DNA of 64,000 nt from an uncultured candidate division Zixibacteria bacterium (GTDB lineage: Bacteria > Zixibacteria > MSB-5A5 > UBA10806 > 4484-95): positions 192,001 to 256,000 of the forward strand of contig CAXXKA010000006.1 in the NCBI GenBank assembly GCA_963668625.2. Reading direction: 5' to 3'. The translations under genes were made by a program, and so were the position numbers. Below the pieces are notes generated by a model. The model saw only the letters and a program-made list of their open reading frames with translations, was not told the DNA's origin and ran no database searches. Positions 1 to 62,100 of the stretch are shown here, piece after piece (positions within the stretch are counted from its first letter, which is position 1; each line of letters begins with the position of its first letter).

Positions 1-428
1 GACGAGATATAATCCATTACCTGGACATCCATGGGGCAAACCTTGGTACAGGCGTTACAGGCCACGCACCTGAATAACTCGGGATACAGGCTGAATATCT
101 CCTCCGGTGCGCCGGTTAGCTTATCGAAATCGTAGGTAGCGCGATTGGCCGGATAGAACGGTAACTGGGTCAAGTACATATCGGGTTCGACAACGGTCTG
201 GCAGGCCAGGCCGGTGTAGATTTTATAATCGCCCGGTTTGCGATAGACGGTACTGCATGCACCACAAACGCCACCTCGACAGCCGCAACCGCGAATATAC
301 TTATAACCCGCGTATTCCATGGCTTTCATGATAGTCAACGTTTCCGGCACTTCGTATTTCTTCCCCATTATGTAGATGGGGATGAGCTTTGCCTCAACGG
401 TTATTTTCGCCTCATCAGAAACGCTCAT
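1..428 (-). CDS. SdhB/FrdB-like 2Fe-2S + 4Fe-4S iron-sulfur protein (partial, runs off window start; absent from ORF track)
   Basis: Manual translation from ATG at 428: MSVSDEAKITVEAKLIPIYIMGKKYEV...GCGCRGGVCGAC...GLACQT...CVACNACTKVCP. GAGG RBS upstream. Confidence 0.8.
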   Translation of the reverse strand, partial: MSVSDEAKITVEAKLIPIYIMGKKYEVPETLTIMKAMEYAGYKYIRGCGCRGGVCGACSTVYRKPGDYKIYTGLACQTVVEPDMYLTQLPFYPANRATYDFDKLTGAPEEIFSLYPELFRCVACNACTKVCPMDVQVMDYIS

Positions 429-469
429 TTTTACCTCACTAGATGTATTAAAATATTGAACATTATTTT

Positions 470-1360
470 CTAAGCCGTTACTTCTTTTAAGATATTTTTA
501 TCTTTGAGAATTTCGGTAGCGCTTGGCCTGTTCAGCTCGAGATGCAGGGTGTCTGGGGAGCAGCCTAAGGCCAGCGCCAGTAGTTGCGAGAAATAAAACA
601 CCGGGATATCTTTGGCATCCTCGAATTTCTGCAGCATCATACCCTGACGGCGAGACAGATTGTAATCGCATAAGGGGCAGGTTAACACCATAGCCTCCGC
701 GCCACGGGTCGAGGCATCCTTTAAGATATCGTAGGACACGTTCAGGGCGGCATCGGGATTGCCCAGCACCTGGTAGCTACCGCAGCATTCGGTGGCCATC
801 GAAAAGTCAACCACCTCCGCGCCGAGAGCTTCCATGAATTTATGGAACAACTCGGGATTATCAGGGCTGTCTAAGGCGACATCTTTTGGTCTTAGCAGGG
901 TGCAGCCGTAGTAAGGCGCCACCTTTATGCCGTTAAGCGGATTAGCGACTTTTTCTTTGAGCTTATCGAAACCGTACTCATCACGTATGTAGTCGAGGAA
1001 ATGTATCACCTTGACTTCGCCGAAGTAATCCGGTTCTTCATCCATGAACGAGTTGATAGTGTTTCTTTTCTCCTCGTCGTTTTTCATCAGTTCGTTGGCT
1101 CGAGCCAGCGTATTGTAGCACATCGAGCAAAGAGTGATAACCGTATCGTTACCCTGCTCTTTAACCCTGATCAAATCGCGAACCGGGGCGACGATATGAA
1201 TCAAGTCGTCATCGGCCAGCGAGTAGACGGCGCCGCAACAGTTCCACCGGGGCAGTTCCTCGTATTCGACACCGAGAGTATCTAAAGCCGCCAGCGCGGA
1301 CTTTTCGAGATTTTTGGCTTTCGTTTTTAACGTGCAGCCGGGGTAGTAACTTATTTTCAT
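470..1360 (-). CDS. hdrB: Heterodisulfide reductase subunit B-like CCG-domain protein
   Basis: YYPGC, WNCCG, CSMC, PYYGC, CCG and CPLC motifs. The ATG at 1360 follows GAGGAAAG; the ORF track starts at 1372. Confidence 0.85.
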   Translation of the reverse strand: MKISYYPGCTLKTKAKNLEKSALAALDTLGVEYEELPRWNCCGAVYSLADDDLIHIVAPVRDLIRVKEQGNDTVITLCSMCYNTLARANELMKNDEEKRNTINSFMDEEPDYFGEVKVIHFLDYIRDEYGFDKLKEKVANPLNGIKVAPYYGCTLLRPKDVALDSPDNPELFHKFMEALGAEVVDFSMATECCGSYQVLGNPDAALNVSYDILKDASTRGAEAMVLTCPLCDYNLSRRQGMMLQKFEDAKDIPVFYFSQLLALALGCSPDTLHLELNRPSATEILKDKNILKEVTA

Positions 1361-1368
1361 AGCTTTCC

Positions 1369-1776
1369 TCACGATGTCATTTTACGGAAGGTGGAAACCA
1401 TGGCGATCTGGGGAGTCTCTTTGATATCCTCAGGGTCGAGGCTGGATGGTTCCAATTGGTTGACGTTCCGGCGAAGCTTTATCAAGCGCAAAGCCTCCAT
1501 CACCTTCGGGATATCGATATCCCTCGGACATCTCACCTGGCAGGTATGGCAAGAGGCGCAAACCCAGGGGGTATTGGCCATATCCAGAGCCTCGGACTGT
1601 CCGTATTGTAACATTATCATCACCTGGCGTGGCAGCAACCCGATTTCCTCGTTCATCGGGCATGACCCTGAACATGTTCCGCATTGGAAACATTGACCGA
1701 CATTCTGGCCGCTAATCTCCATCACCTTGAGGCGAAGCTTATTGTTAATGGTTCGCTTTGAGATTTTTAATGCCAT
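1369..1776 (-). CDS. hdrC: Heterodisulfide reductase subunit C-like 2x[4Fe-4S] protein
   Basis: CFQCGTCSGSCP and CASCHTCQVRCP motifs, directly upstream of hdrB. Confidence 0.85.
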   Translation of the reverse strand: MALKISKRTINNKLRLKVMEISGQNVGQCFQCGTCSGSCPMNEEIGLLPRQVMIMLQYGQSEALDMANTPWVCASCHTCQVRCPRDIDIPKVMEALRLIKLRRNVNQLEPSSLDPEDIKETPQIAMVSTFRKMTS

Positions 1777-1941
1777 TGTAACCTCTAAGTTGTTAATTTT
1801 ATTGGGAATAGACTTTTTTCAAAGGAAATGAATATGACTAAGTATTTAAAAGGTAATGTCATACGTGCACAATCCAAAGTCGCAAGCTCCTGTTATAGCT
1901 TGACTGAAATATAGTGAATTTGAAATTGCATGACAACATCT

Positions 1942-1959
1942 TTGCGAAATATTTCACAC
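1942..1959. promoter_or_regulatory. Putative Rex operator
   Basis: TTGCGAA-ATAT-TTCACAC has 2 mismatches to TTGTGAA-N4-TTCACAA and lies upstream of hdrC. Confidence 0.45.
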
Positions 1960-2151
1960 ATTTTTAAAGAAAAGTATGATTTTCTATTGTTCGTAGATAT
2001 GGATATCTATGGAGAAACAAATATTCGTTGCTAAAAGTTAATTAATTTAAGAAAAAAATGAACCTTCATTCGTTTTGACGATAATATAATAAATGGCTTG
2101 ACTTTTAGTGTAATATACATATTCTAGAAAGTAAGAAAGGGTGAATGAAAC

Positions 2152-3201
2152 ATGAGATTAACAAAGTTTTTAACGGTAACATTCCTAGCTGTTTTATTAC
2201 CTGTGTCTCTGACTTTCGGGCAAACCGGAACATCCGCTCAGAAACCTGCGGTGGCGAAACAAAAAGCGACTATCGAGGACGCGAGTAAATCGAAAGATAG
2301 AAATCCTGTTATTTCCAGGTCAAAAAAGCAAGAACCTGAACCGGAAATACCACTTTCTGATGCCAGAATCGCGTTTGAGTATTCAAAGTTTGATTTCGGC
2401 ACGGTTCCGAACGGCGCCCAGATGACACATTATTTCCCGGTCACGAACATCGGGCCGGATACTCTGTATATTACAAAAATCAAAGCTGGGTGAGGATGCA
2501 CTACGTCAAAAGCGAGCGGGATAGTTATTCCGCCAGGAGATAGCGCCTTAATAGATGTTTCTTATCGTTCATCTAAATCGACTAAGAATACCAGGCGCAT
2601 AACCAAGCGTATCAGCGTTCACTCGAACGATTCCTCGAATCCTGTGGCCAGCCTGACTATTCAAGCCCAGGCTAATATGTCGGAATCCGTGTTAAAATGG
2701 AATCCTGACAAGGCTGAATTCAATCAGGTACTTATCGGTAAAGGTGATAAGTTCAAACTCGAACTCCAGAACACCGATAGCACCGATATAAGGCTTGAGG
2801 TCGTAAGCGAACCTGATCCGCAAATCGTTAAAAAGTATAAAATAAAGAAAGATAAACTCAAACCCAATCAGACTACCGAGATTGAGTTCGAATTGAGAGA
2901 AGATTTACCTCCGGGAGTTTTCAAAACGACCTTAACCGCCCAGATAGAGGGTAGTGGCTCTAACAGGTTCTCGATACCTATTACCGGCACTGTGGTTGAG
3001 AAAATTAGCCCGGAAAAACCGGTGGCGGCCTCTCACAAAAAACCGCCCGCAAAGAAGAGCAGCAATGTTAAATCAGGCAAAAAATTTGACCCTAATACCG
3101 GCATACAGGTTAAAAAACCGGTCGTTAATGATAGGGCCGAATCGAAACCTGCTACACAAACTATACCGCTCTCCACTATCGACGATTCTGATCTCAAATA
3201 A
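2152..3201 (+). CDS. Secreted DUF1573-like Ig-domain protein, predicted selenoprotein (349 aa, Sec114, U-G-C)
   Basis: Signal peptide. In-frame TGA at 2491-2493 aligns with the Cys of KPGCGCT in the paralog at 3350. The frame stays open through 2644 to TAA at 3201, and a hairpin lies at 2516-2533. Confidence 0.85.
2516..2533 (+). promoter_or_regulatory. Candidate bacterial SECIS upper stem-loop
   Basis: GCGGGATA-GT-TATTCCGC begins 23 nt after the UGA, with the apical G at +31. Confidence 0.7.
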
Positions 3202-3229
3202 TCTTTATCTTAAATTCACGAAATTAGTA

Positions 3230-3253
3230 AACCGGTCTTATGGCCGGTTTTTT
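3230..3253 (+). terminator. Rho-independent terminator
   Basis: AACCGGTC-TTAT-GGCCGGTT followed by a T-run. Confidence 0.65.
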
Positions 3254-3349
3254 GTTATCGGTATTTTCCCGTCATTTTCAGTTTTAGCTCAATTGAGGTT
3301 CATAACATTTCATTAAGTATATTCGATTTTTAACGGAAGGAGTAAAACG

Positions 3350-4267
3350 ATGTACGGACGTATCAATTTCATGATTTGCTTGATTGCTGTGCTGGTTCTA
3401 TCGAGTGGTGTTCAGGTCTCTTTCGGCCAAACAGCGAAAACAAGAACCAAACCCCTCACGAAAACCAAATCCAAAATTGTAACTCAAAAAGATAAATCTA
3501 CCCCGGAGATACCCCCGAATAATTCAACGATCACTTTCGATCATGAGCAGTTCGATTATGGTGTCGTGCCCAGGGGAGAGCAAGTTACGCATCATTTCCC
3601 CGTGAAAAATACCGGTACCGATACATTGACGATTACCCGGATTAAACCCGGATGCGGTTGTACGACCACCCGTAAGAGCAGTATTGTGCTGCCTCCCGGT
3701 GAAAGTTCGCTGATAGATATCACTTATCGATCCTCAAAATCAGCGAGATCGGGGCATAAGGTTACCAAGAGAATTCGCATAGAATCAACCGACTCGCAAA
3801 AACCTACCCTGCAACTTTCGATTTCCGCCCGTACCGACACAGCGGATTGTATGTTAAGATGTCGCCCGGAGATGGTTGATTTGGGCGAGGTTTTAATAGG
3901 TAAGGATGATAAATTCGAGGTTGAAATAACTAACATCGATTCTCTGAAGTCGGAGATTATGGTGGTCAGTGAGCCGACTTCCGAATTCATAAAAAAGTTC
4001 AAGATCAAGAAAGACAAATTAAAATCAGATCAGAAAACGAAAATCGAATTTCAGCTTCAGGATAATATTCCTCCGGGCGAATTCAAAACGGCTCTTACTA
4101 TCGAGGCGAATAACGATTCTAAATCTCGTATCTCCATTCCGATTCATGGCAAAATAGTCGAATCATTTAGCGAAAAGAAAACCAGCAAAGCCGGGCAGGA
4201 GATGTCGTCATCGGCCGTTAGCGGCCACCCTAAAGTATCTACCGTTGACGATTCGGATTTAAAGTAG
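3350..4267 (+). CDS. Secreted DUF1573-like Ig-domain protein, Cys paralog (C102-G-C104)
   Basis: Signal peptide, FDYGVV..HFPVKNTG.D.L.I..IKPGCGCT...LPPGES pattern, second Ig-like domain, AAGGAG RBS. Confidence 0.88.
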   Translation: MYGRINFMICLIAVLVLSSGVQVSFGQTAKTRTKPLTKTKSKIVTQKDKSTPEIPPNNSTITFDHEQFDYGVVPRGEQVTHHFPVKNTGTDTLTITRIKPGCGCTTTRKSSIVLPPGESSLIDITYRSSKSARSGHKVTKRIRIESTDSQKPTLQLSISARTDTADCMLRCRPEMVDLGEVLIGKDDKFEVEITNIDSLKSEIMVVSEPTSEFIKKFKIKKDKLKSDQKTKIEFQLQDNIPPGEFKTALTIEANNDSKSRISIPIHGKIVESFSEKKTSKAGQEMSSSAVSGHPKVSTVDDSDLK

Positions 4268-4415
4268 AGTGATATCGAGAACATACATTTTAAATCCATA
4301 GAACTAGCCGGGTTTTCTTTATTTTTAGCTGTTCACACGACAGTTTTTACATTAAATTCGGTGAAGGAAAACAGGAGGTGGATATCGTTAGTAATCGTTC
4401 GAGGGATAGAGCTAA

Positions 4416-5171
4416 ATGATGAATAAGATTATCCCGGTTTTAAAGTCAATAGTCATGGTGTTTGCGATGGTCGGAGCGTCTATGGCTCAAAACTCCGGTA
4501 ATGAAATTACTGCCAACTCGACGGTTGATGCGGTCATTAATTTCGAACACATGGAATTTGATTTTGGAGCGATACCGCCGGGCGCCGGGGTTGCGCACGA
4601 ATTTTCCGTAAAAAACGAGGGCTCGGACACCCTTGTCATTCATCGAATTAAACCCGGCTGAGGTTGTACGACTTTAGATAAGAGTGCGATAGTTATCGCG
4701 CCGGGCGAAAGTTCTGAGATCGGAATTATTTATAAAGCGCCGAAAACCGACAAATATATTGGCAAGCAAAGAAAAAGGATAACGGTTTATTCCAATGATC
4801 CGGTTAATCCGGTACTTGCTATATATATAGCCTCTTCAGTTAACAGACCTGATATGCCTTTTGCAGTCGAGCCTGCCGAGGTTGATTTCGGCGTGGTGAT
4901 GGCCGGCGAATCTAAAACCCGGACGGTTACGATTGCAAATGTGAGTCAACTGGATTTGAGTCTGTTGGCTATCGATGAACCTGATGATATCTTTATAAGT
5001 GATTATAAGTTACAGTCTGCTGATTTAAAGTCCGGTCAGTCGACAGCATTAAGTATTACTCTTCAAAGTGAACACGTAGTCGAGGAATTCGTTACCTCTA
5101 TTACGCTCGAGACAAGCGGGCAATTCGCCAAACGCTTATCGATTCCGATTCATGGCATGATCGTGAAATAA
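4416..5171 (+). CDS. Secreted DUF1573-like Ig-domain protein, predicted selenoprotein (251 aa, Sec82, U-G-C)
   Basis: IKPG-TGA(4659-4661)-GCTTLDKSAIVIAPGES. The frame is open through 4854 to TAA at 5171, and a hairpin lies at 4684-4701. Confidence 0.85.
4684..4701 (+). promoter_or_regulatory. Candidate bacterial SECIS upper stem-loop
   Basis: GTGCGATA-GT-TATCGCGC begins 23 nt after the UGA with the apical G at +31, and covaries with 2516-2533. Confidence 0.7.
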
Positions 5172-5363
5172 TCATCCTCCAAAATTAATTAACATACAAC
5201 TATAGGTAATATAGACAGCCTATATTTCTAATATATGAGTTAATTTCTGCATTGTTGCATTCCTGTTAAGAGGGTGAACGTTTTGATGGAAGGTAATGTA
5301 TCTGCGAGCATTCTTTCCGAAAATAAAAACAAAGAAACATCAGAGATGAAATTGGAGGAAAGG

Positions 5364-6950
5364 ATGAGAACTATTAAACTCCTTGCTGTGGCCGTTATTA
5401 CTATTTTGATTTGTGCCACAACAGTCAATGCCCAGGGTTTTTCCTCGCTTATAGAGAAGCTGGATCAACTTGAAGCCAAATTGGCCGAACTGGAGAATTC
5501 ACAAAAACAGGATGTTGCCAATTTAAAGAAAGAGTTGGCCAACTCACCGAAAGGCGCTAATAACTCTGAAAGCCAGGCCGCTATCAAGAAGATGTCGTCC
5601 AAGCTGGATGCTATGAACGCTGAGCTGACCGAGGTGAAAACAGGTTCCGAGAAGATACAAGCTAACTATGATATGTTGATGGCCGAGCTATTAGAGCTTA
5701 CTTACGCTCTCAAACAGACTATGAAGGAACAGGACGCGACCGGTCATAAACCTGCTTATCGCGCCGAGGTGTCATCGCCCAAACCGATGTCGAGCCAGGC
5801 GCCGAAATCCGAAAAATCGGCTAAACCTATCTCGAATGGTGAGCCGTCCCTGAGTTATCAGCCGTATGGTTATATCAAACTTGACGGTTCTTACGATCAG
5901 AATTTGACCAGCCACGGTAATTTCGCAATGTGGGTGAAGCCAAAATCTTATGAAAAAGATGATGAGCAACTGAACATGACCGCCAACCAGAGCCGCCTCG
6001 GATTTAAAATCGATAGCCAGAATTATGGCGAATATAAGCTTCATGGGCAGTTCGAGGTTGACCTCTATGCCAGTGTCTCCGGTGGAGTGGCCGAGAACAA
6101 GGGAATGTTCCAACTTCGTCATGCGTTTTTCTCGATAGAAAAAGGTAACACCAAACTACTGGCCGGCCAGTATTGGGACCTTTACAGCCCATTAAATCCC
6201 TCTACCATTAACTATCCGGTGCTCTGGGGCGCCGGTAACACCGGTTACCGTCGCGCGCAGATTACGCTGGCTCAGTCATTCTCTATGGGAACGCAAACTA
6301 CGGGCACGCTTTCCGGCGGCGCGTTCCGTACTATCGGTTCTGATTTGACTCCGACGCTCGAGTGGAGCCTCGAGGATTCCAGCGAAACCTCCGATGGCGA
6401 GGATGACGGCACCGATGCCGGTATTCCCACGGTTCAGGGAAGGCTCGATATCAATCACAGTTTCGCTTCAGGTTCAAAACTGTTGGTGGGTGTTTCCGGT
6501 TTATGGGGCCAACTCAAGGCCGAGACCAATCGCGGCAACAACAACACTTACGAAAGTTGGGGTGTATGCGGCCATATGAAATGGTCGTGGAGCAAATTCG
6601 GTTTGGCCGGTGAATATTACAGCGGCTCGAACCTCGGATCCTATTTCGGCGGTATACTCAATTCGAGCACTATAGACGGCACCAATGCGCAAGGTGGCTG
6701 GGGATTCGCCTGGATAAAGACCTCACCCAAGACGAAGCTCGGATTCGGTGTAGGCAACGATACGGCTAAAGAGGAGGATATCTCCTCCGGCAGCCGTCTG
6801 AAAAATCAATCGATTTTCGGTAATATCAATTACTCGATAGTCAAGAACGCTACTGTTGGCCTCGAGCTCTCTCAGTGGCAAACAGAGTATAAGGATGGCG
6901 AGACCGAGAAGAGTTTCCGCGCCCAGACAGCTTTCACGTTTAGTTTCTAA
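5364..6950 (+). CDS. DcaP-like outer-membrane porin with N-terminal coiled coil
   Basis: Signal peptide after a GGAGG RBS (ATG 5364). YGYIKLD, ANQSRLG, LRHAF and LAGQYW motifs, terminal Phe. Confidence 0.75.
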   Translation: MRTIKLLAVAVITILICATTVNAQGFSSLIEKLDQLEAKLAELENSQKQDVANLKKELANSPKGANNSESQAAIKKMSSKLDAMNAELTEVKTGSEKIQANYDMLMAELLELTYALKQTMKEQDATGHKPAYRAEVSSPKPMSSQAPKSEKSAKPISNGEPSLSYQPYGYIKLDGSYDQNLTSHGNFAMWVKPKSYEKDDEQLNMTANQSRLGFKIDSQNYGEYKLHGQFEVDLYASVSGGVAENKGMFQLRHAFFSIEKGNTKLLAGQYWDLYSPLNPSTINYPVLWGAGNTGYRRAQITLAQSFSMGTQTTGTLSGGAFRTIGSDLTPTLEWSLEDSSETSDGEDDGTDAGIPTVQGRLDINHSFASGSKLLVGVSGLWGQLKAETNRGNNNTYESWGVCGHMKWSWSKFGLAGEYYSGSNLGSYFGGILNSSTIDGTNAQGGWGFAWIKTSPKTKLGFGVGNDTAKEEDISSGSRLKNQSIFGNINYSIVKNATVGLELSQWQTEYKDGETEKSFRAQTAFTFSF

Positions 6951-6976
6951 AGCAATCAGAATACGACAAACTTACG

Positions 6977-7003
6977 AACCGCCTCATAATGGGGCGGTTT
7001 TTT
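6977..7003 (+). terminator. Rho-independent terminator
   Basis: AACCGCCTCA-TAA-TGGGGCGGTT plus a T-run. Confidence 0.7.
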
Positions 7004-7290
7004 CATTACCTTTTTTGTTATGATACTTATTTTATTCAATGCTCATAATATTATTGGAGCCACAGATGAATCAATTTCTCGGATCAAAATCCTTCGCTAA
7101 GCGCCTGGGCCATACGATCGAGACTTTAAACTTTAGTCTCTCCTACGCAATGAATTTATGTTTTGAAAAAGTTCGAAAAACACCGGACACTAATAATAAA
7201 GGATCTATAATGTATGGTATGGATCCGTCTTATTTAATCGGTAGTAAGTAATAGAACCGTAAATGCCTAATGTTCGATATGGATTAAGGA

Positions 7291-7950
7291 ATGATTATGA
7301 ATTCGAATCGTATTATAATTGCAGTAATAATGTTATTAACTTTTGCTTTCTCCTCCACCGTGTTTTCTCAATCGATGTTCTTGCAGAACGAGCAATCCGG
7401 CATTTTATTAGGAGGAGGTATCGAATTCCGTGAGAGCGCTCAAGCTTACGAGGTTTTTGCCTCGTATTCGTTAGCGTCGGTATTGGATATATCGGCGTTT
7501 ATTGGCGATTTGAACGCCGGGAATGCGGACTACAGTGATGGTAATTACATGGGATTCGGGCTAATGGCACATTTATTGAGATCAGGCGCCAATTTAAGCT
7601 ATTCGATTGCCCCGATGTTCTCGCATAGTAAGATAAATTACGATGCTATCTCAGATGATCAAGTTACCGATACTTACGGCGGCTTTTTATATATTCGAAG
7701 CAACAGCTTACGATCCAGATTTTTCCTGGTTGGTGTTGGCATTACCAATTCGAAATCCTCGCTTGAGGTCGGTGGAGATAAGTTTTCCGAGGAAGAGATG
7801 GGATTTACGATAGATTTCAATTCACCATTGTCCGGCCTTCCCATCTCGTTGCGAAGCGCTGCTTCGCAACGTGACTTTTGGGCCGGCAAAATGCGCATTC
7901 TACATGACACAAGAAGGTTTCCAAGCAGCGCTTGGAAACCAGGGAACTAA
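7291..7950 (+). CDS. Hypothetical secreted beta-rich protein; C-terminus probably derived from a palindromic repeat
   Basis: Signal peptide and amphipathic beta-strand character. The last ~35 codons overlap the REP-like doublet. Confidence 0.55.
   Translation: MIMNSNRIIIAVIMLLTFAFSSTVFSQSMFLQNEQSGILLGGGIEFRESAQAYEVFASYSLASVLDISAFIGDLNAGNADYSDGNYMGFGLMAHLLRSGANLSYSIAPMFSHSKINYDAISDDQVTDTYGGFLYIRSNSLRSRFFLVGVGITNSKSSLEVGGDKFSEEEMGFTIDFNSPLSGLPISLRSAASQRDFWAGKMRILHDTRRFPSSAWKPGN
7845..7942. repeat. REP-like inverted doublet of hairpins
   Basis: CGTTGCGAAGC-GCT-GCTTCGCAACG (7847-7871) and GGTTTCCAAGC-AGC-GCTTGGAAACC (7916-7940). Confidence 0.7.
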
Positions 7951-62016: not shown

Positions 62017-62100
62017 GGAGGATTAGCTCTAATTGGTAAGGCAGCGGTCTTGAAAACCGCCGGCCGAAAGGCCATGGGGGTTCGAATCCCTCATCCTCCG
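62017..62100 (+). tRNA. tRNA-Ser (anticodon TGA)
   Basis: Acceptor GGAGGAT/ATCCTCC, anticodon arm GCGGT-CTTGAAA-ACCGC, long variable arm GGCC-GAAA-GGCC, GGTTCGAATCC, discriminator G. CCA is not encoded. Confidence 0.93.

What the first reader, a model, noticed from the sequence alone, without database searches (positions are those of the whole stretch)
2152..5171. Tandem array of secreted DUF1573-like proteins, two of them predicted U-G-C selenoproteins
Seen: three paralogs with signal peptides. Copy 2 reads IKPG-C-GCTTTRKSSIVLPPGES. Copy 1 reads IKAG-TGA-GCTTSKASGIVIPPGDS (TGA 2491-2493). Copy 3 reads IKPG-TGA-GCTTLDKSAIVIAPGES (TGA 4659-4661). In both, the frame continues without a stop and stays homologous, giving 349 aa and 251 aa proteins, and the ORF track splits each in two. 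Two independent nonsense mutations at the same Cys codon in diverged paralogs are unlikely. TGA is a normal stop elsewhere in the window. Established: UGA aligned with a conserved Cys plus a downstream hairpin is the signature of SelA/SelB/SelC selenocysteine insertion. Inference: these are exported Ig-fold selenoproteins with a UxC redox or metal-binding motif, unlike the thioredoxin-fold and molybdoenzyme selenoproteins. I cannot verify whether this family already appears in published selenoproteomes.
Basis: partly seen in the sequence, partly recalled or inferred. Interest (0 to 1): 0.93.

Follow-up and report, generated by a model that had tools for sequence, protein, structure and literature searches.

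The report
Tandem DUF1573 selenoprotein genes, known family
Two of three neighbouring genes for exported DUF1573 proteins very probably encode selenocysteine at an in-frame TGA, but this protein family is already listed in published selenoprotein catalogues, so these are new members, not a new kind.

Summary
Three tandem + strand genes (2152-3201, 3350-4267, 4416-5171) encode signal-peptide-bearing DUF1573 (PF07610) proteins. Copies 1 and 3 carry one in-frame TGA at the first Cys of the invariant CGC motif; copy 2 has TGC.

Evidence for real selenocysteine codons:
- The genome has tRNA-Sec and a selD-selA-selB cluster.
- TGA is otherwise an ordinary stop.
- All 51 in-frame TGAs I aligned, from the window and 37 of 41 related genomes, fall in this one column. 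No TAA or TAG was seen.
- A 7-bp hairpin with an AGUU loop sits 26-43 nt after each TGA. It is 97% paired with compensatory changes in Sec forms, but only 59% paired (chance level) in Cys paralogs.
- Purifying selection continues downstream of the TGA.

The family is not new. It was published as OS_HP2 (pfam07610, UxC) in 2007/2008, appears in 2022 and 2026 reviews as a "DUF1573 domain-containing protein, UGC", and has an NCBIfam model (NF041425). The window's proteins score below that model's cut-off.

What is new is local: a lineage-specific triplication, a Sec-to-Cys convert (copy 2), and near-universal presence in the phylum (apparently Zixibacteria). Function remains unknown; an exported selenylsulfide redox centre is my best guess.

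The parts
2152..3201 (+). DUF1573 copy 1, predicted selenoprotein of 349 aa (signal peptide, DUF1573 Ig-like domain with UGC, second Ig-like domain, basic low-complexity tail ending DDSDLK)
   Evidence: Translation with TGA=U. PF07610 83.4 bits and NF041425 73.3 bits, below that model's cut-off of 100. It is the ortholog of the single Sec gene at the same locus in same-genus genomes (51.5% and 48.6% identity in one HSP across the TGA).
2491..2493 (+). In-frame TGA read as selenocysteine (U114), at the first position of the U-G-C motif
   Evidence: It aligns with the invariant first Cys of CGC. All 51 in-frame TGAs in 88 aligned domains fall in this column.
2516..2533 (+). bSECIS-like hairpin GCGGGAU-AGUU-AUUCCGC, 26-43 nt from the U of UGA
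   Evidence: Fold. In 10 Sec genes of this clade, 97.1% of cells are paired and 3 pairs change on both sides, reached by 0 of 500 shuffles. The same structure on 8 Cys paralogs is 58.9% paired, equal to shuffles.
3229..3250 (+). Terminator-like hairpin with a T run after copy 1
   Evidence: Consensus scan: 9 pairs, 5 of them G-C, followed by TTTGTTATCG. This is a pattern match only.
3350..4267 (+). DUF1573 copy 2, Cys form (CGC), 305 aa, inferred Sec-to-Cys convert
   Evidence: Translation; PF07610 86.3 bits. In the tree it is the only Cys row in an 11-row set whose other 10 rows are Sec (SH-aLRT 80).
3653..3661 (+). TGC-GGT-TGT codons of the C-G-C motif in copy 2
4416..5171 (+). DUF1573 copy 3, predicted selenoprotein of 251 aa (signal peptide, DUF1573 domain with UGC, second Ig-like domain, no tail)
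   Evidence: Translation with TGA=U. PF07610 94.8 bits and NF041425 76.9 bits.
4659..4661 (+). In-frame TGA read as selenocysteine (U82)
   Evidence: Same alignment column as copy 1. It is covered without a listed difference by contigs of runs X1 and X2 and by one contig of X5, a run of another study.
4684..4701 (+). bSECIS-like hairpin GUGCGAU-AGUU-AUCGCGC, at the same offset as in copy 1
   Evidence: Relative to copy 1, pair 29:40 is G-C to C-G, pair 30:39 is G-U to G-C, and pair 27:42 is C-G to U-G.

Best explanation
The region holds a lineage-specific tandem triplication of a gene for an exported two-domain Ig-like protein of the DUF1573 family (PF07610).

Copies 1 and 3 are selenoproteins. 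Their single in-frame UGA replaces the first Cys of the family's invariant C-G-C-T motif. I infer that it is decoded by the genome's own SelB/tRNA-Sec system, guided by a 7-bp hairpin with an AGUU loop 26-43 nt downstream inside the coding sequence. Copy 2 is a duplicate that has changed Sec to Cys.

Shown by computation: family membership; the TGA column shared with 49 homologues in related genomes; presence of tRNA-Sec, selA, selB and selD; hairpin covariation specific to Sec forms; purifying selection across the TGA; TGA as a normal stop elsewhere.

Inferred: export by a Sec-type signal peptide, and the function. For the function I commit to a redox-active selenylsulfide/disulfide centre (U-G-C) on an exported Ig-like scaffold, meaning a thiol-disulfide or chalcogen oxidoreductase of the cell envelope (about 50%). 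Soft-metal or metalloid binding is the main alternative.

The protein family is the already published selenoprotein family OS_HP2 / 'DUF1573 domain-containing protein, UGC'. The confidence given is for the selenoprotein reading, not for the function.
For: Sec machinery in the 95.9%-complete genome:
- tRNA-Sec at 68 bits over the Rfam cut-off, also called tRNA-SeC(tca) by ARAGORN.
- selB 347.9 bits, selA 467.8 bits, and selD 353.8 bits (itself with 1 in-frame TGA), adjacent on contig C1:154251-158454, plus a second selD.

Codon column:
- Among 150 listed PF07610 matches in 41 class-level genomes, 51 had exactly '1 TGA', 99 had no stop and 0 had TAA/TAG; 39 matches were unlisted.
- After HMM alignment of 88 domains, all 51 TGAs sit in the first-Cys column and each domain has only that one TGA. 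The other rows were TGC 28, TGT 4, other residues 5. I fetched all TGA-flagged loci but only the top-scoring others, so the TGA:TGY ratio is not a frequency.
- In a phylum-wide draw of 151 genomes, 34 of 150 listed matches had '1 TGA' and none had another stop; 461 matches were unlisted.

Hairpin:
- Sec clade A1: 97.1% paired, 3 pairs with both-side changes, 0/500 shuffles, slid controls 26-71%.
- The covarying columns 27:42 and 30:39 are third codon positions.
- Cys sister clade A5, encoding a similar G-I-V-x-P-P peptide: 58.9% paired against a shuffled mean of 58.0% (249/500).
- A second clade of 15 Sec genes has a different, longer stem at +16..+43, 91.7% paired.
- Mean 60-nt folding energy is -19.4 kcal/mol for Sec forms and -16.1 for Cys forms, Mann-Whitney p = 1.5e-4.

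Selection: for copy 1 versus its G001 ortholog, pN/pS is 0.19/0.59 in the 45 codons upstream, 0.23/0.59 in codons +1..+60, and 0.28/0.79 in codons +61..+175.

Code: TGA closes 14 of 48 long frames in the window.

Reads: contigs of X1 and of a second run of the same sample (X2) cover both TGAs with 0 differences.

Literature: OS_HP2 = pfam07610, UxC, 2 Sec and 354 Cys sequences in GOS; DUF1573/UGC rows in review tables.

For the redox reading: U and C of the motif are the only Sec/Cys residues in the whole of copies 1 and 3. Another UGC selenoprotein listed in print is a TlpA-family disulfide reductase.
Against: - There is no experimental evidence of selenium incorporation.
- No run on record as RNA was listed for this stretch, so expression is not addressed.
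- The hairpin is short. Whole 60-nt folds are not unusual against shuffles (z = -0.74 and -1.05).
- Gly (GGN) and Pro (CCN) codons flanking I-V-I give some pairing for free; the Cys control shows a 59% baseline.
- No Rfam family matched the hairpins.
- The three proteins, and 11 Sec domains of 10 related genomes, score 48-85 bits on NF041425, below its cut-off of 100. By NCBI's own criterion they are outside the curated OS_HP2 subfamily.
- The Sec machinery is present in all 41 relatives, including the 4 with only Cys forms. The proposed correlation of TGA with machinery therefore has no negative cases in this phylum and could not be tested.
- Function: no conserved gene neighbourhood outside the genus and family. 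The only solved relative found by sequence (2qsv_A) lacks the CGC motif. No structural model could be made.
Confidence: 0.88

Rival explanations
1. Same selenoproteins, different function. The U-G-C / C-G-C pair is a soft-metal or metalloid ligand (Cu(I), Hg, Cd, As, or Se/S species), and the exported Ig-like protein is a binding, chaperone or detoxification protein rather than an oxidoreductase.
For: The selenoprotein tables that list DUF1573 also list several Sec-containing metal-handling proteins, such as MerP/MerT-like proteins, a cation-transporting ATPase and a YHS domain protein. A vicinal CxC pair is a common metal ligand (recalled knowledge, not tested). Copy 2 has an additional CxxxC pair at residues 167 and 171.
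Against: There are no metal-resistance or transport genes next to the arrays in any of the 10 loci examined. Most Sec/Cys pairs in known selenoproteins are catalytic redox residues (the general statement in the reviews; only passages were read).
Confidence: 0.3
2. The TGAs are genuine stops. Each 'gene' is really two genes, or a pseudogene: an N-terminal fragment plus a separately started C-terminal ORF, as the ORF track and public gene callers show.
For: Table-11 ORF calling gives two pieces each. The public protein collection holds many 116-207-aa pieces that begin at query positions 122-182, including the window's own 185-aa ORF P0010.
Against: The break would fall inside one Ig beta-sandwich domain (PF07610 match 73-172 spans U114). 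All 51 TGAs fall in one column, with no TAA/TAG. The gaps of 150 and 192 nt between the pieces (2494-2643 and 4662-4853) stay in frame, homologous and under purifying selection. The hairpin is kept only in TGA forms. The full Sec machinery is present.
Confidence: 0.03
3. TGA is reassigned to a standard amino acid in this organism (Trp or Gly, as in codes 4 or 25), or the TGAs are sequencing or assembly errors.
For: None beyond the open frames.
Against: TGA ends 14 of 48 long frames in the window. The aligned residue in homologues is Cys (TGC 28, TGT 4). Two runs of the sample give identical contigs over both TGAs. Forty-nine homologues in other assemblies have TGA at the same codon.
Confidence: 0.01

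Closest known systems
OS_HP2 / 'DUF1573 domain-containing protein' selenoprotein family (Zhang and Gladyshev 2007, PMC1976440; 2008, PMC2398784; review tables in PMC9312934 and PMC13188914; NCBIfam NF041425)
   Same: Same Pfam family (PF07610). Same U-x-C / U-G-C motif, with Sec at the first Cys. Predicted bacterial SECIS hairpin after the UGA. Cys homologues far outnumber Sec forms. Function is unknown in both.
   Different: The published members came from deltaproteobacterial worm symbionts and ocean metagenomes. These are from a genome whose relatives are labelled Candidatus Zixiibacteriota, and they score 73-82 bits against NF041425's cut-off of 100. Here the gene is triplicated in tandem with mixed Sec/Cys copies. 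I could not see the papers' Figure 4 alignment or supplements, so identity of the Sec column rests on the tables' 'pfam07610, UxC/UGC' entries.
[quoted passage not shown]
   Same: It has a U-G-C motif and belongs to the TlpA disulfide reductase family, known for periplasmic thiol-disulfide reductases (that location is recalled). This supports the idea that UGC can be a redox centre outside the cytoplasm.
   Different: It has a thioredoxin fold (cd02966), not an Ig-like beta-sandwich, and shows no sequence relationship to these proteins.
PDB 2qsv_A, 'uncharacterized protein' (the only solved bacterial relative found by sequence profile, E 1.7e-8)
   Same: A two-domain Ig-like protein. Its C-terminal domain aligns with the DUF1573 domain, including the NxG...L...PG...NDP framework.
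   Different: The stretch aligned with 'VkptCGCTsa' reads 'VTTRNPALTA'. It has no Cys pair, so it says nothing about the active site.
HYDIN / ASH / PapD-like Ig domains (PF22544, PF15780; ciliary Hydin chains in the PDB)
   Same: Fold-level homology for both domains (PF22544, E about 1e-23; Hydin, E 4e-19).
   Different: These are eukaryotic ciliary structural repeats without the CGC motif. The relationship concerns the scaffold only.
N-terminal domain of DsbD (a periplasmic Ig-like domain with a redox-active Cys pair). Recalled from memory, not tested here.
   Same: A precedent for an Ig-like beta-sandwich carrying a catalytic thiol-disulfide pair in the cell envelope.
   Different: No sequence match was found or sought, the Cys spacing differs, and membership is not claimed.

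Membership tests
Pfam PF07610 (DUF1573) | HMM score above the gathering cut-off (26.1 bits) | tested here: met
   83.4, 86.3 and 94.8 bits for copies 1, 2 and 3.
Pfam PF07610 (DUF1573) | Conserved C-G-C-T motif in the domain | tested here: met
   C45, G46, C47 and T48 are invariant in 20 Cys-form domains. The window copies read UGCT, CGCT and UGCT.
NCBIfam NF041425, OS_HP2 family (seleno)protein | Score at or above the curated cut-off of 100 bits | tested here: not met
   73.3, 82.4 and 76.9 bits. Eleven Sec domains of 10 related genomes and the Cys paralog on contig C1 of the window's own genome score 47.8-84.8 bits. No match in the own genome passes the cut-off.
Published OS_HP2 / DUF1573 selenoprotein family | pfam07610 domain with Sec in a UxC (UGC) motif | tested here: met
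   Tables in PMC2398784, PMC9312934 and PMC13188914 define it this way. The window has U-G-C in a PF07610 domain.
Bacterial SelB-dependent selenoprotein gene | In-frame UGA aligned with Cys in homologues | tested here: met
   TGA 51, TGC 28, TGT 4 in one column. Copy 2 and the C1 paralog of the same genome have Cys.
Bacterial SelB-dependent selenoprotein gene | Stem-loop (bSECIS) shortly downstream of the UGA | tested here: met
   A 7-bp stem with an AGUU loop at +26..+43, with covariation specific to Sec forms. It was not matched by any Rfam family. The spacing and loop-G rules of bSECIS predictors are recalled and were not run.
Bacterial SelB-dependent selenoprotein gene | tRNA-Sec, SelA, SelB and SelD encoded in the genome | tested here: met
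   All are over their curated cut-offs.
Bacterial SelB-dependent selenoprotein gene | Selenium actually present in the protein | not testable with these tools
   This needs 75Se labelling or mass spectrometry.
Exported thiol-disulfide oxidoreductase (functional class, not a sequence family) | Solvent-exposed redox pair with exchange activity, and a periplasmic or extracellular location | not tested
The signal peptide was judged only by a hydropathy heuristic.

The most novel reading that the evidence does not exclude
The mixed Sec/Cys tandem arrays of DUF1573 genes may be selenium-responsive isoform sets of a core envelope redox protein of Zixibacteria. The arrays are U-C-U here, and other mixes occur in at least six related genomes (G026, G027, G030, G035, G037, G040). 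At least one Sec form is present in 37 of 41 genomes. In this reading the Cys copy, freshly converted from Sec, serves when selenium is scarce. This would resemble the Sec/Cys isoenzyme pairs of methanococci (recalled), but for an exported Ig-fold protein whose chemistry is still unknown.
Probability: 0.15. Interest if true: 0.5.

Novelty: new member of a known kind. Interest (0 to 1): 0.25.

Why it matters
The main value is for annotation. These genes, and dozens like them across the phylum, are split or truncated by standard gene callers: C-terminal fragments are frequent in the public protein collection. They also fall below the cut-off of the one curated model meant to catch them. The DUF1573 selenoprotein family has been catalogued since 2007, but I found no function for it in the passages I read. 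A lineage in which nearly every genome carries a Sec form, often beside Cys paralogs, is a reasonable place to work out what an Ig-fold U-G-C protein does. The finding does not reveal a new mechanism or a new selenoprotein family.

Tried and rejected
- **Pseudogene, split-gene, recoding and sequencing-error readings:** rejected; see the rival explanations.
- **Rfam scan of 1800-5400 at E up to 10:** only chance-level sRNA/CRISPR/snoRNA matches and no SECIS family.
- **PDB by sequence:** P0003 alone gave nothing below E 0.48. The profile of 20 domain sequences gave no hit. The full-length profile found Hydin repeats and 2qsv_A, which lacks the motif.
- **ESM Atlas:** P0003 is not held.
- **The search for related loci:** the single protein found nothing. 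The 7-row alignment gave 8 loci, whose titles gave the taxon label.
- **Gene neighbourhood as a clue to function:** synteny with a divergent hdrC/hdrB-like-ferredoxin-flavoprotein operon holds only in the genus and in one other genome of the family. Other families show unrelated neighbours.
- **Correlation of TGA with Sec machinery:** not informative, because selA is in 41 of 41 relatives.
- **Expression:** no RNA holder was listed.
- **Runs X3 and X5:** they hold only short parts of the stretch. X5's one contig (4429-4694) spans the second TGA with 3 other letters, of which only one (4515) is listed, so I do not count it as firm independent support.
- **Other TGA-split genes in the window:** none besides the two DUF1573 genes; copy 1 is not listed by this scan because its stop-to-stop frame holds more than one TGA. 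The other 8 candidates are antisense frames within longer ORFs.
- **Literature searches:** 'Zixibacteria' with 'selenocysteine', 'Zixibacteria' with 'selenoprotein', 'DUF1573' and 'PF07610' found no paper describing these selenoproteins in Zixibacteria. Supplements were closed and not consulted.
Full report
**1. What is in the sequence**

Three genes lie head to tail on the + strand. Read with TGA as Sec, they are:
- Copy 1, 2152-3201, 349 aa, ...ITKIKAG-U-GCTTSKASGIVIPPGDS, TGA at 2491-2493.
- Copy 2, 3350-4267, 305 aa, ...ITRIKPG-C-GCTTTRKSSIVLPPGES.
- Copy 3, 4416-5171, 251 aa, ...IHRIKPG-U-GCTTLDKSAIVIAPGES, TGA at 4659-4661.

Under table 11 the two TGA genes fall apart into 113 + 185 aa and 81 + 105 aa ORFs.

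Each protein begins with 1-2 basic residues and a 12-residue hydrophobic stretch, and has no later membrane-like segment. That pattern fits a Sec-type signal peptide, but this is a heuristic, not a predictor result.

All three match Pfam DUF1573 (PF07610; 83-95 bits against a cut-off of 26.1) and the HYDIN/VesB Ig-like model. A second Ig-like domain follows.

In copies 1 and 3 the U and C of the motif are the only Sec/Cys residues in the whole protein.

A terminator-like hairpin follows copy 1 (3229-3250).

**2. Are the TGAs selenocysteine codons?**

*Sec machinery.* The window is G000:C6:192001-256000 of a 4.3-Mb, 10-contig genome estimated 95.9% complete. It encodes:
- a tRNA-Sec (68 bits over the Rfam cut-off; ARAGORN calls tRNA-SeC, anticodon tca);
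- a selD-selA-selB cluster on C1:154251-158454, in which selD itself holds one in-frame TGA;
- a second selD.

*TGA is otherwise a stop.* It closes 14 of 48 long frames in the window, which rules out a reassigned code.

*Homologues.*
- A PF07610 search of 41 class-level genomes listed 150 of 189 matches. Of these, 51 had exactly one TGA inside, 99 had no stop and none had TAA or TAG.
- I fetched every TGA-flagged locus and aligned 88 domains to an HMM built from the window's three copies. All 51 TGAs are in the column of the first Cys of C-G-C, and each of those domains holds no other TGA. The remaining rows have TGC (28), TGT (4) or, in degenerate second domains, other residues (5).
- Because I fetched the TGA loci on purpose, this ratio is not a frequency.
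- By genome, 37 of 41 have at least one TGA form. The other four (G008, G024, G032, G033) have only Cys forms.
- A draw of 151 genomes from the phylum found DUF1573 in all. Of the 150 listed matches, 34 have '1 TGA' and none has another stop; 461 matches were unlisted.

*The hairpin.*
- Both window genes fold a 7-bp stem with an AGUU loop at +26..+43 from the U of UGA (2516-2533 and 4684-4701).
- Across the 10 Sec genes of this clade, 97.1% of cells pair and three pairs change on both sides. None of 500 shuffles reaches this, and slid registers give 26-71%. The covarying columns are third codon positions.
- There is a real caveat: the encoded peptide G-I-V-I-P-P puts GGN opposite CCN, which gives some pairing for free.
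- I therefore ran the same structure on eight Cys paralogs of the same genomes that encode a similar peptide. They are 58.9% paired, exactly the shuffled expectation of 58.0% (249/500). The stem is thus maintained only where there is a TGA.
- Another clade of 15 Sec genes keeps a different, longer stem at +16..+43 (91.7% paired).
- Over all rows, Sec forms fold more stably than Cys forms (-19.4 versus -16.1 kcal/mol, p = 1.5e-4).
- Against this, the 60-nt folds of the two window genes are not unusual against shuffles (z = -0.74 and -1.05), and no Rfam family matches.

*Selection.* Between copy 1 and its same-genus ortholog, pN/pS is 0.19/0.59 in the 45 codons before the TGA, 0.23/0.59 in the 60 codons after it, and 0.28/0.79 in the second domain. 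Synonymous sites are near saturation, so only pN well below pS is meaningful. There is no relaxation downstream. tblastn alignments cross the TGA in one piece.

*Reads.* Contigs of run X1 (possibly the source) and of a second run of the same sample (X2) cover both TGAs with no difference. A contig from another study (X5) spans the second TGA, but not all of its three differences are listed, so I give it little weight. No run on record as RNA was listed.

**3. History of the array**

Two same-genus genomes and one same-family genome have a single Sec-DUF1573 gene at this locus. It lies divergent from the same hdrC-like / hdrB-like (CCG domain) / ferredoxin operon, to which a flavoprotein (FAD_binding_2) gene is added in G001 and G009.

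In G001 the order is ligA, HHH, AI-2E transporter, DUF1573, hdrC, hdrB, ferredoxin. The window has the same frame but holds three DUF1573 genes plus two extra ORFs (5274-6950 and 7291-7950).

The tree used 80 domain rows. Of the 88, I dropped 5 with other residues at the column and 3 shorter than 70 aa. It was a quick search with SH-aLRT support only, on 103 columns.
- The window's three copies sit in an 11-row set (support 80) that is otherwise all Sec. Copy 2 is its only Cys row.
- A Cys-only clade (support 95) containing the genome's fourth paralog (C1:439066-439860) lies beside it.
- Parsimony needs 14 Sec/Cys changes over the tree, of which at least 4 are forced by well-supported branches.

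The simplest reading is a local triplication followed by Sec-to-Cys conversion of copy 2. Copy 2 has a 6-bp hairpin in a shifted register (3678-3692), which may be a relic or chance.

Mixed Sec/Cys tandem arrays also occur in G026, G027, G030, G035, G037 and G040. All-Sec arrays occur in G028 and G029.

**4. Taxon**

Related loci fetched from named records carry these labels:
- 'Candidatus Zixiibacteriota bacterium' MAGs: 3 of 8.
- 'uncultured Ignavibacteria bacterium': 3 of 8.
- 'uncultured bacterium': 1 of 8.
- A beta-proteobacterial record, with a weak match: 1 of 8.

I take the organism to be a member of Zixibacteria. This rests on labels of relatives only.

**5. Comparison with what is known**

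The family is already a published selenoprotein family.
- Zhang and Gladyshev named it OS_HP2 in the Olavius symbiont metagenome, with two Sec sequences (PMC1976440; I read section 12 and Table 2).
- The GOS study lists 'OS_HP2, pfam07610, UxC, 2 selenoproteins, 354 Cys homologues' (PMC2398784; table passage only).
- Two reviews list 'DUF1573 domain-containing protein, pfam07610/PF07610, UGC' (PMC9312934 and PMC13188914; table passages only).
- NCBIfam has NF041425, 'OS_HP2 family (seleno)protein'.

The window's proteins hit that model at 73-82 bits, below its cut-off of 100. The 11 Sec domains I tried from 10 related genomes also fall short (48-85 bits). By the curated criterion they are outside the OS_HP2 subfamily, while sharing its Pfam family and motif.

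Public gene calls show the consequence. Among the best 150 of 13,188 relatives of copy 2, many are 116-207-aa pieces that start just after the Sec position.

The library searches named under 'tried and rejected' found no paper on these proteins in Zixibacteria. Supplements were closed.

**6. Function**

Nothing I could run settles it.
- The neighbourhood is not conserved beyond close relatives.
- The only solved bacterial relative found, 2qsv_A, has no Cys at the motif.

My best guess, at about 50%, is a redox-active selenylsulfide centre on an exported Ig-like scaffold. The reasons are that Sec replaces the first, presumably attacking, Cys of an invariant vicinal pair; that the pair is the only Cys/Sec in the mature protein; and that another UGC selenoprotein in print belongs to the periplasmic TlpA disulfide reductase family. 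Soft-metal or metalloid binding is the main alternative, at about 30%.

**7. Verdict**

The kind of protein is already known. These are new members of a known kind. The modest added points are the tandem Sec/Cys/Sec array, the recent Sec-to-Cys convert, the near-universal presence across the phylum, and the annotation gap left by the existing model.

Noticed in passing
G000:C1:154251-158454 (loci L019, L017, L009; outside the window): selD, selA and selB lie adjacent. This selD has one in-frame TGA, so it is probably itself a selenoprotein. A second selD without TGA is at C8:1138152-1139072.
   Followed up: partly
window 3848-3862: Copy 2 (the Cys form) has an extra C-x-x-x-C pair (C167, C171; 'TADCMLRCRP') in the linker between its two Ig-like domains. 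Copies 1 and 3 have no Cys or Sec other than the UGC pair.
   Followed up: no
window 3181-3198 and 4247-4264: Copies 1 and 2 end with the same C-terminal hexapeptide, DDSDLK, after otherwise dissimilar basic low-complexity tails. Copy 3 and most orthologs lack it, though one G025 gene ends SSSSDLK. Its meaning is unknown.
   Followed up: partly
window 5274-7950: Two ORFs (558 aa with an N-terminal coiled-coil-like stretch and a beta-rich, porin-like remainder; 219 aa with no Pfam match) lie between the array and the AI-2E transporter gene. tblastn found neither in the 16-kb syntenic stretch fetched from the same-genus genome G001, so they belong to the same local expansion or insertion as copies 2 and 3.
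   Followed up: partly
window 3-1776 (- strand): An operon of hdrC-like (4Fe-4S), hdrB-like (CCG domain) and 2Fe-2S/4Fe-4S ferredoxin genes lies divergent from the array. It is 75-90% identical and syntenic in G001, G002 and G009; in G001 and G009 a FAD_binding_2 flavoprotein gene follows. It looks like a thiol:fumarate-reductase or succinate-dehydrogenase-like module. No functional link to DUF1573 is shown.
   Followed up: partly
window 62017-62099 (+): A weak match to the tRNA-Sec model (39.3 bits, below the cut-off of 47). It is probably an ordinary long-variable-arm tRNA (L004). The real tRNA-Sec is on contig C2.
   Followed up: no
L085 (G034:C2:153045-154178): One relative has TGA at the Sec column, but it is followed by G-L-Y-L-S instead of G-C-T. 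The open frame is only 108 aa and the tree branch is very long, so this is possibly a decaying copy.
   Followed up: no
public protein collection, e.g. P0010 = window 2644-3201: Many database entries related to these proteins are 116-207-aa pieces that start just after the Sec position. This suggests that Sec forms of DUF1573 are widely mis-called as truncated genes.
   Followed up: partly
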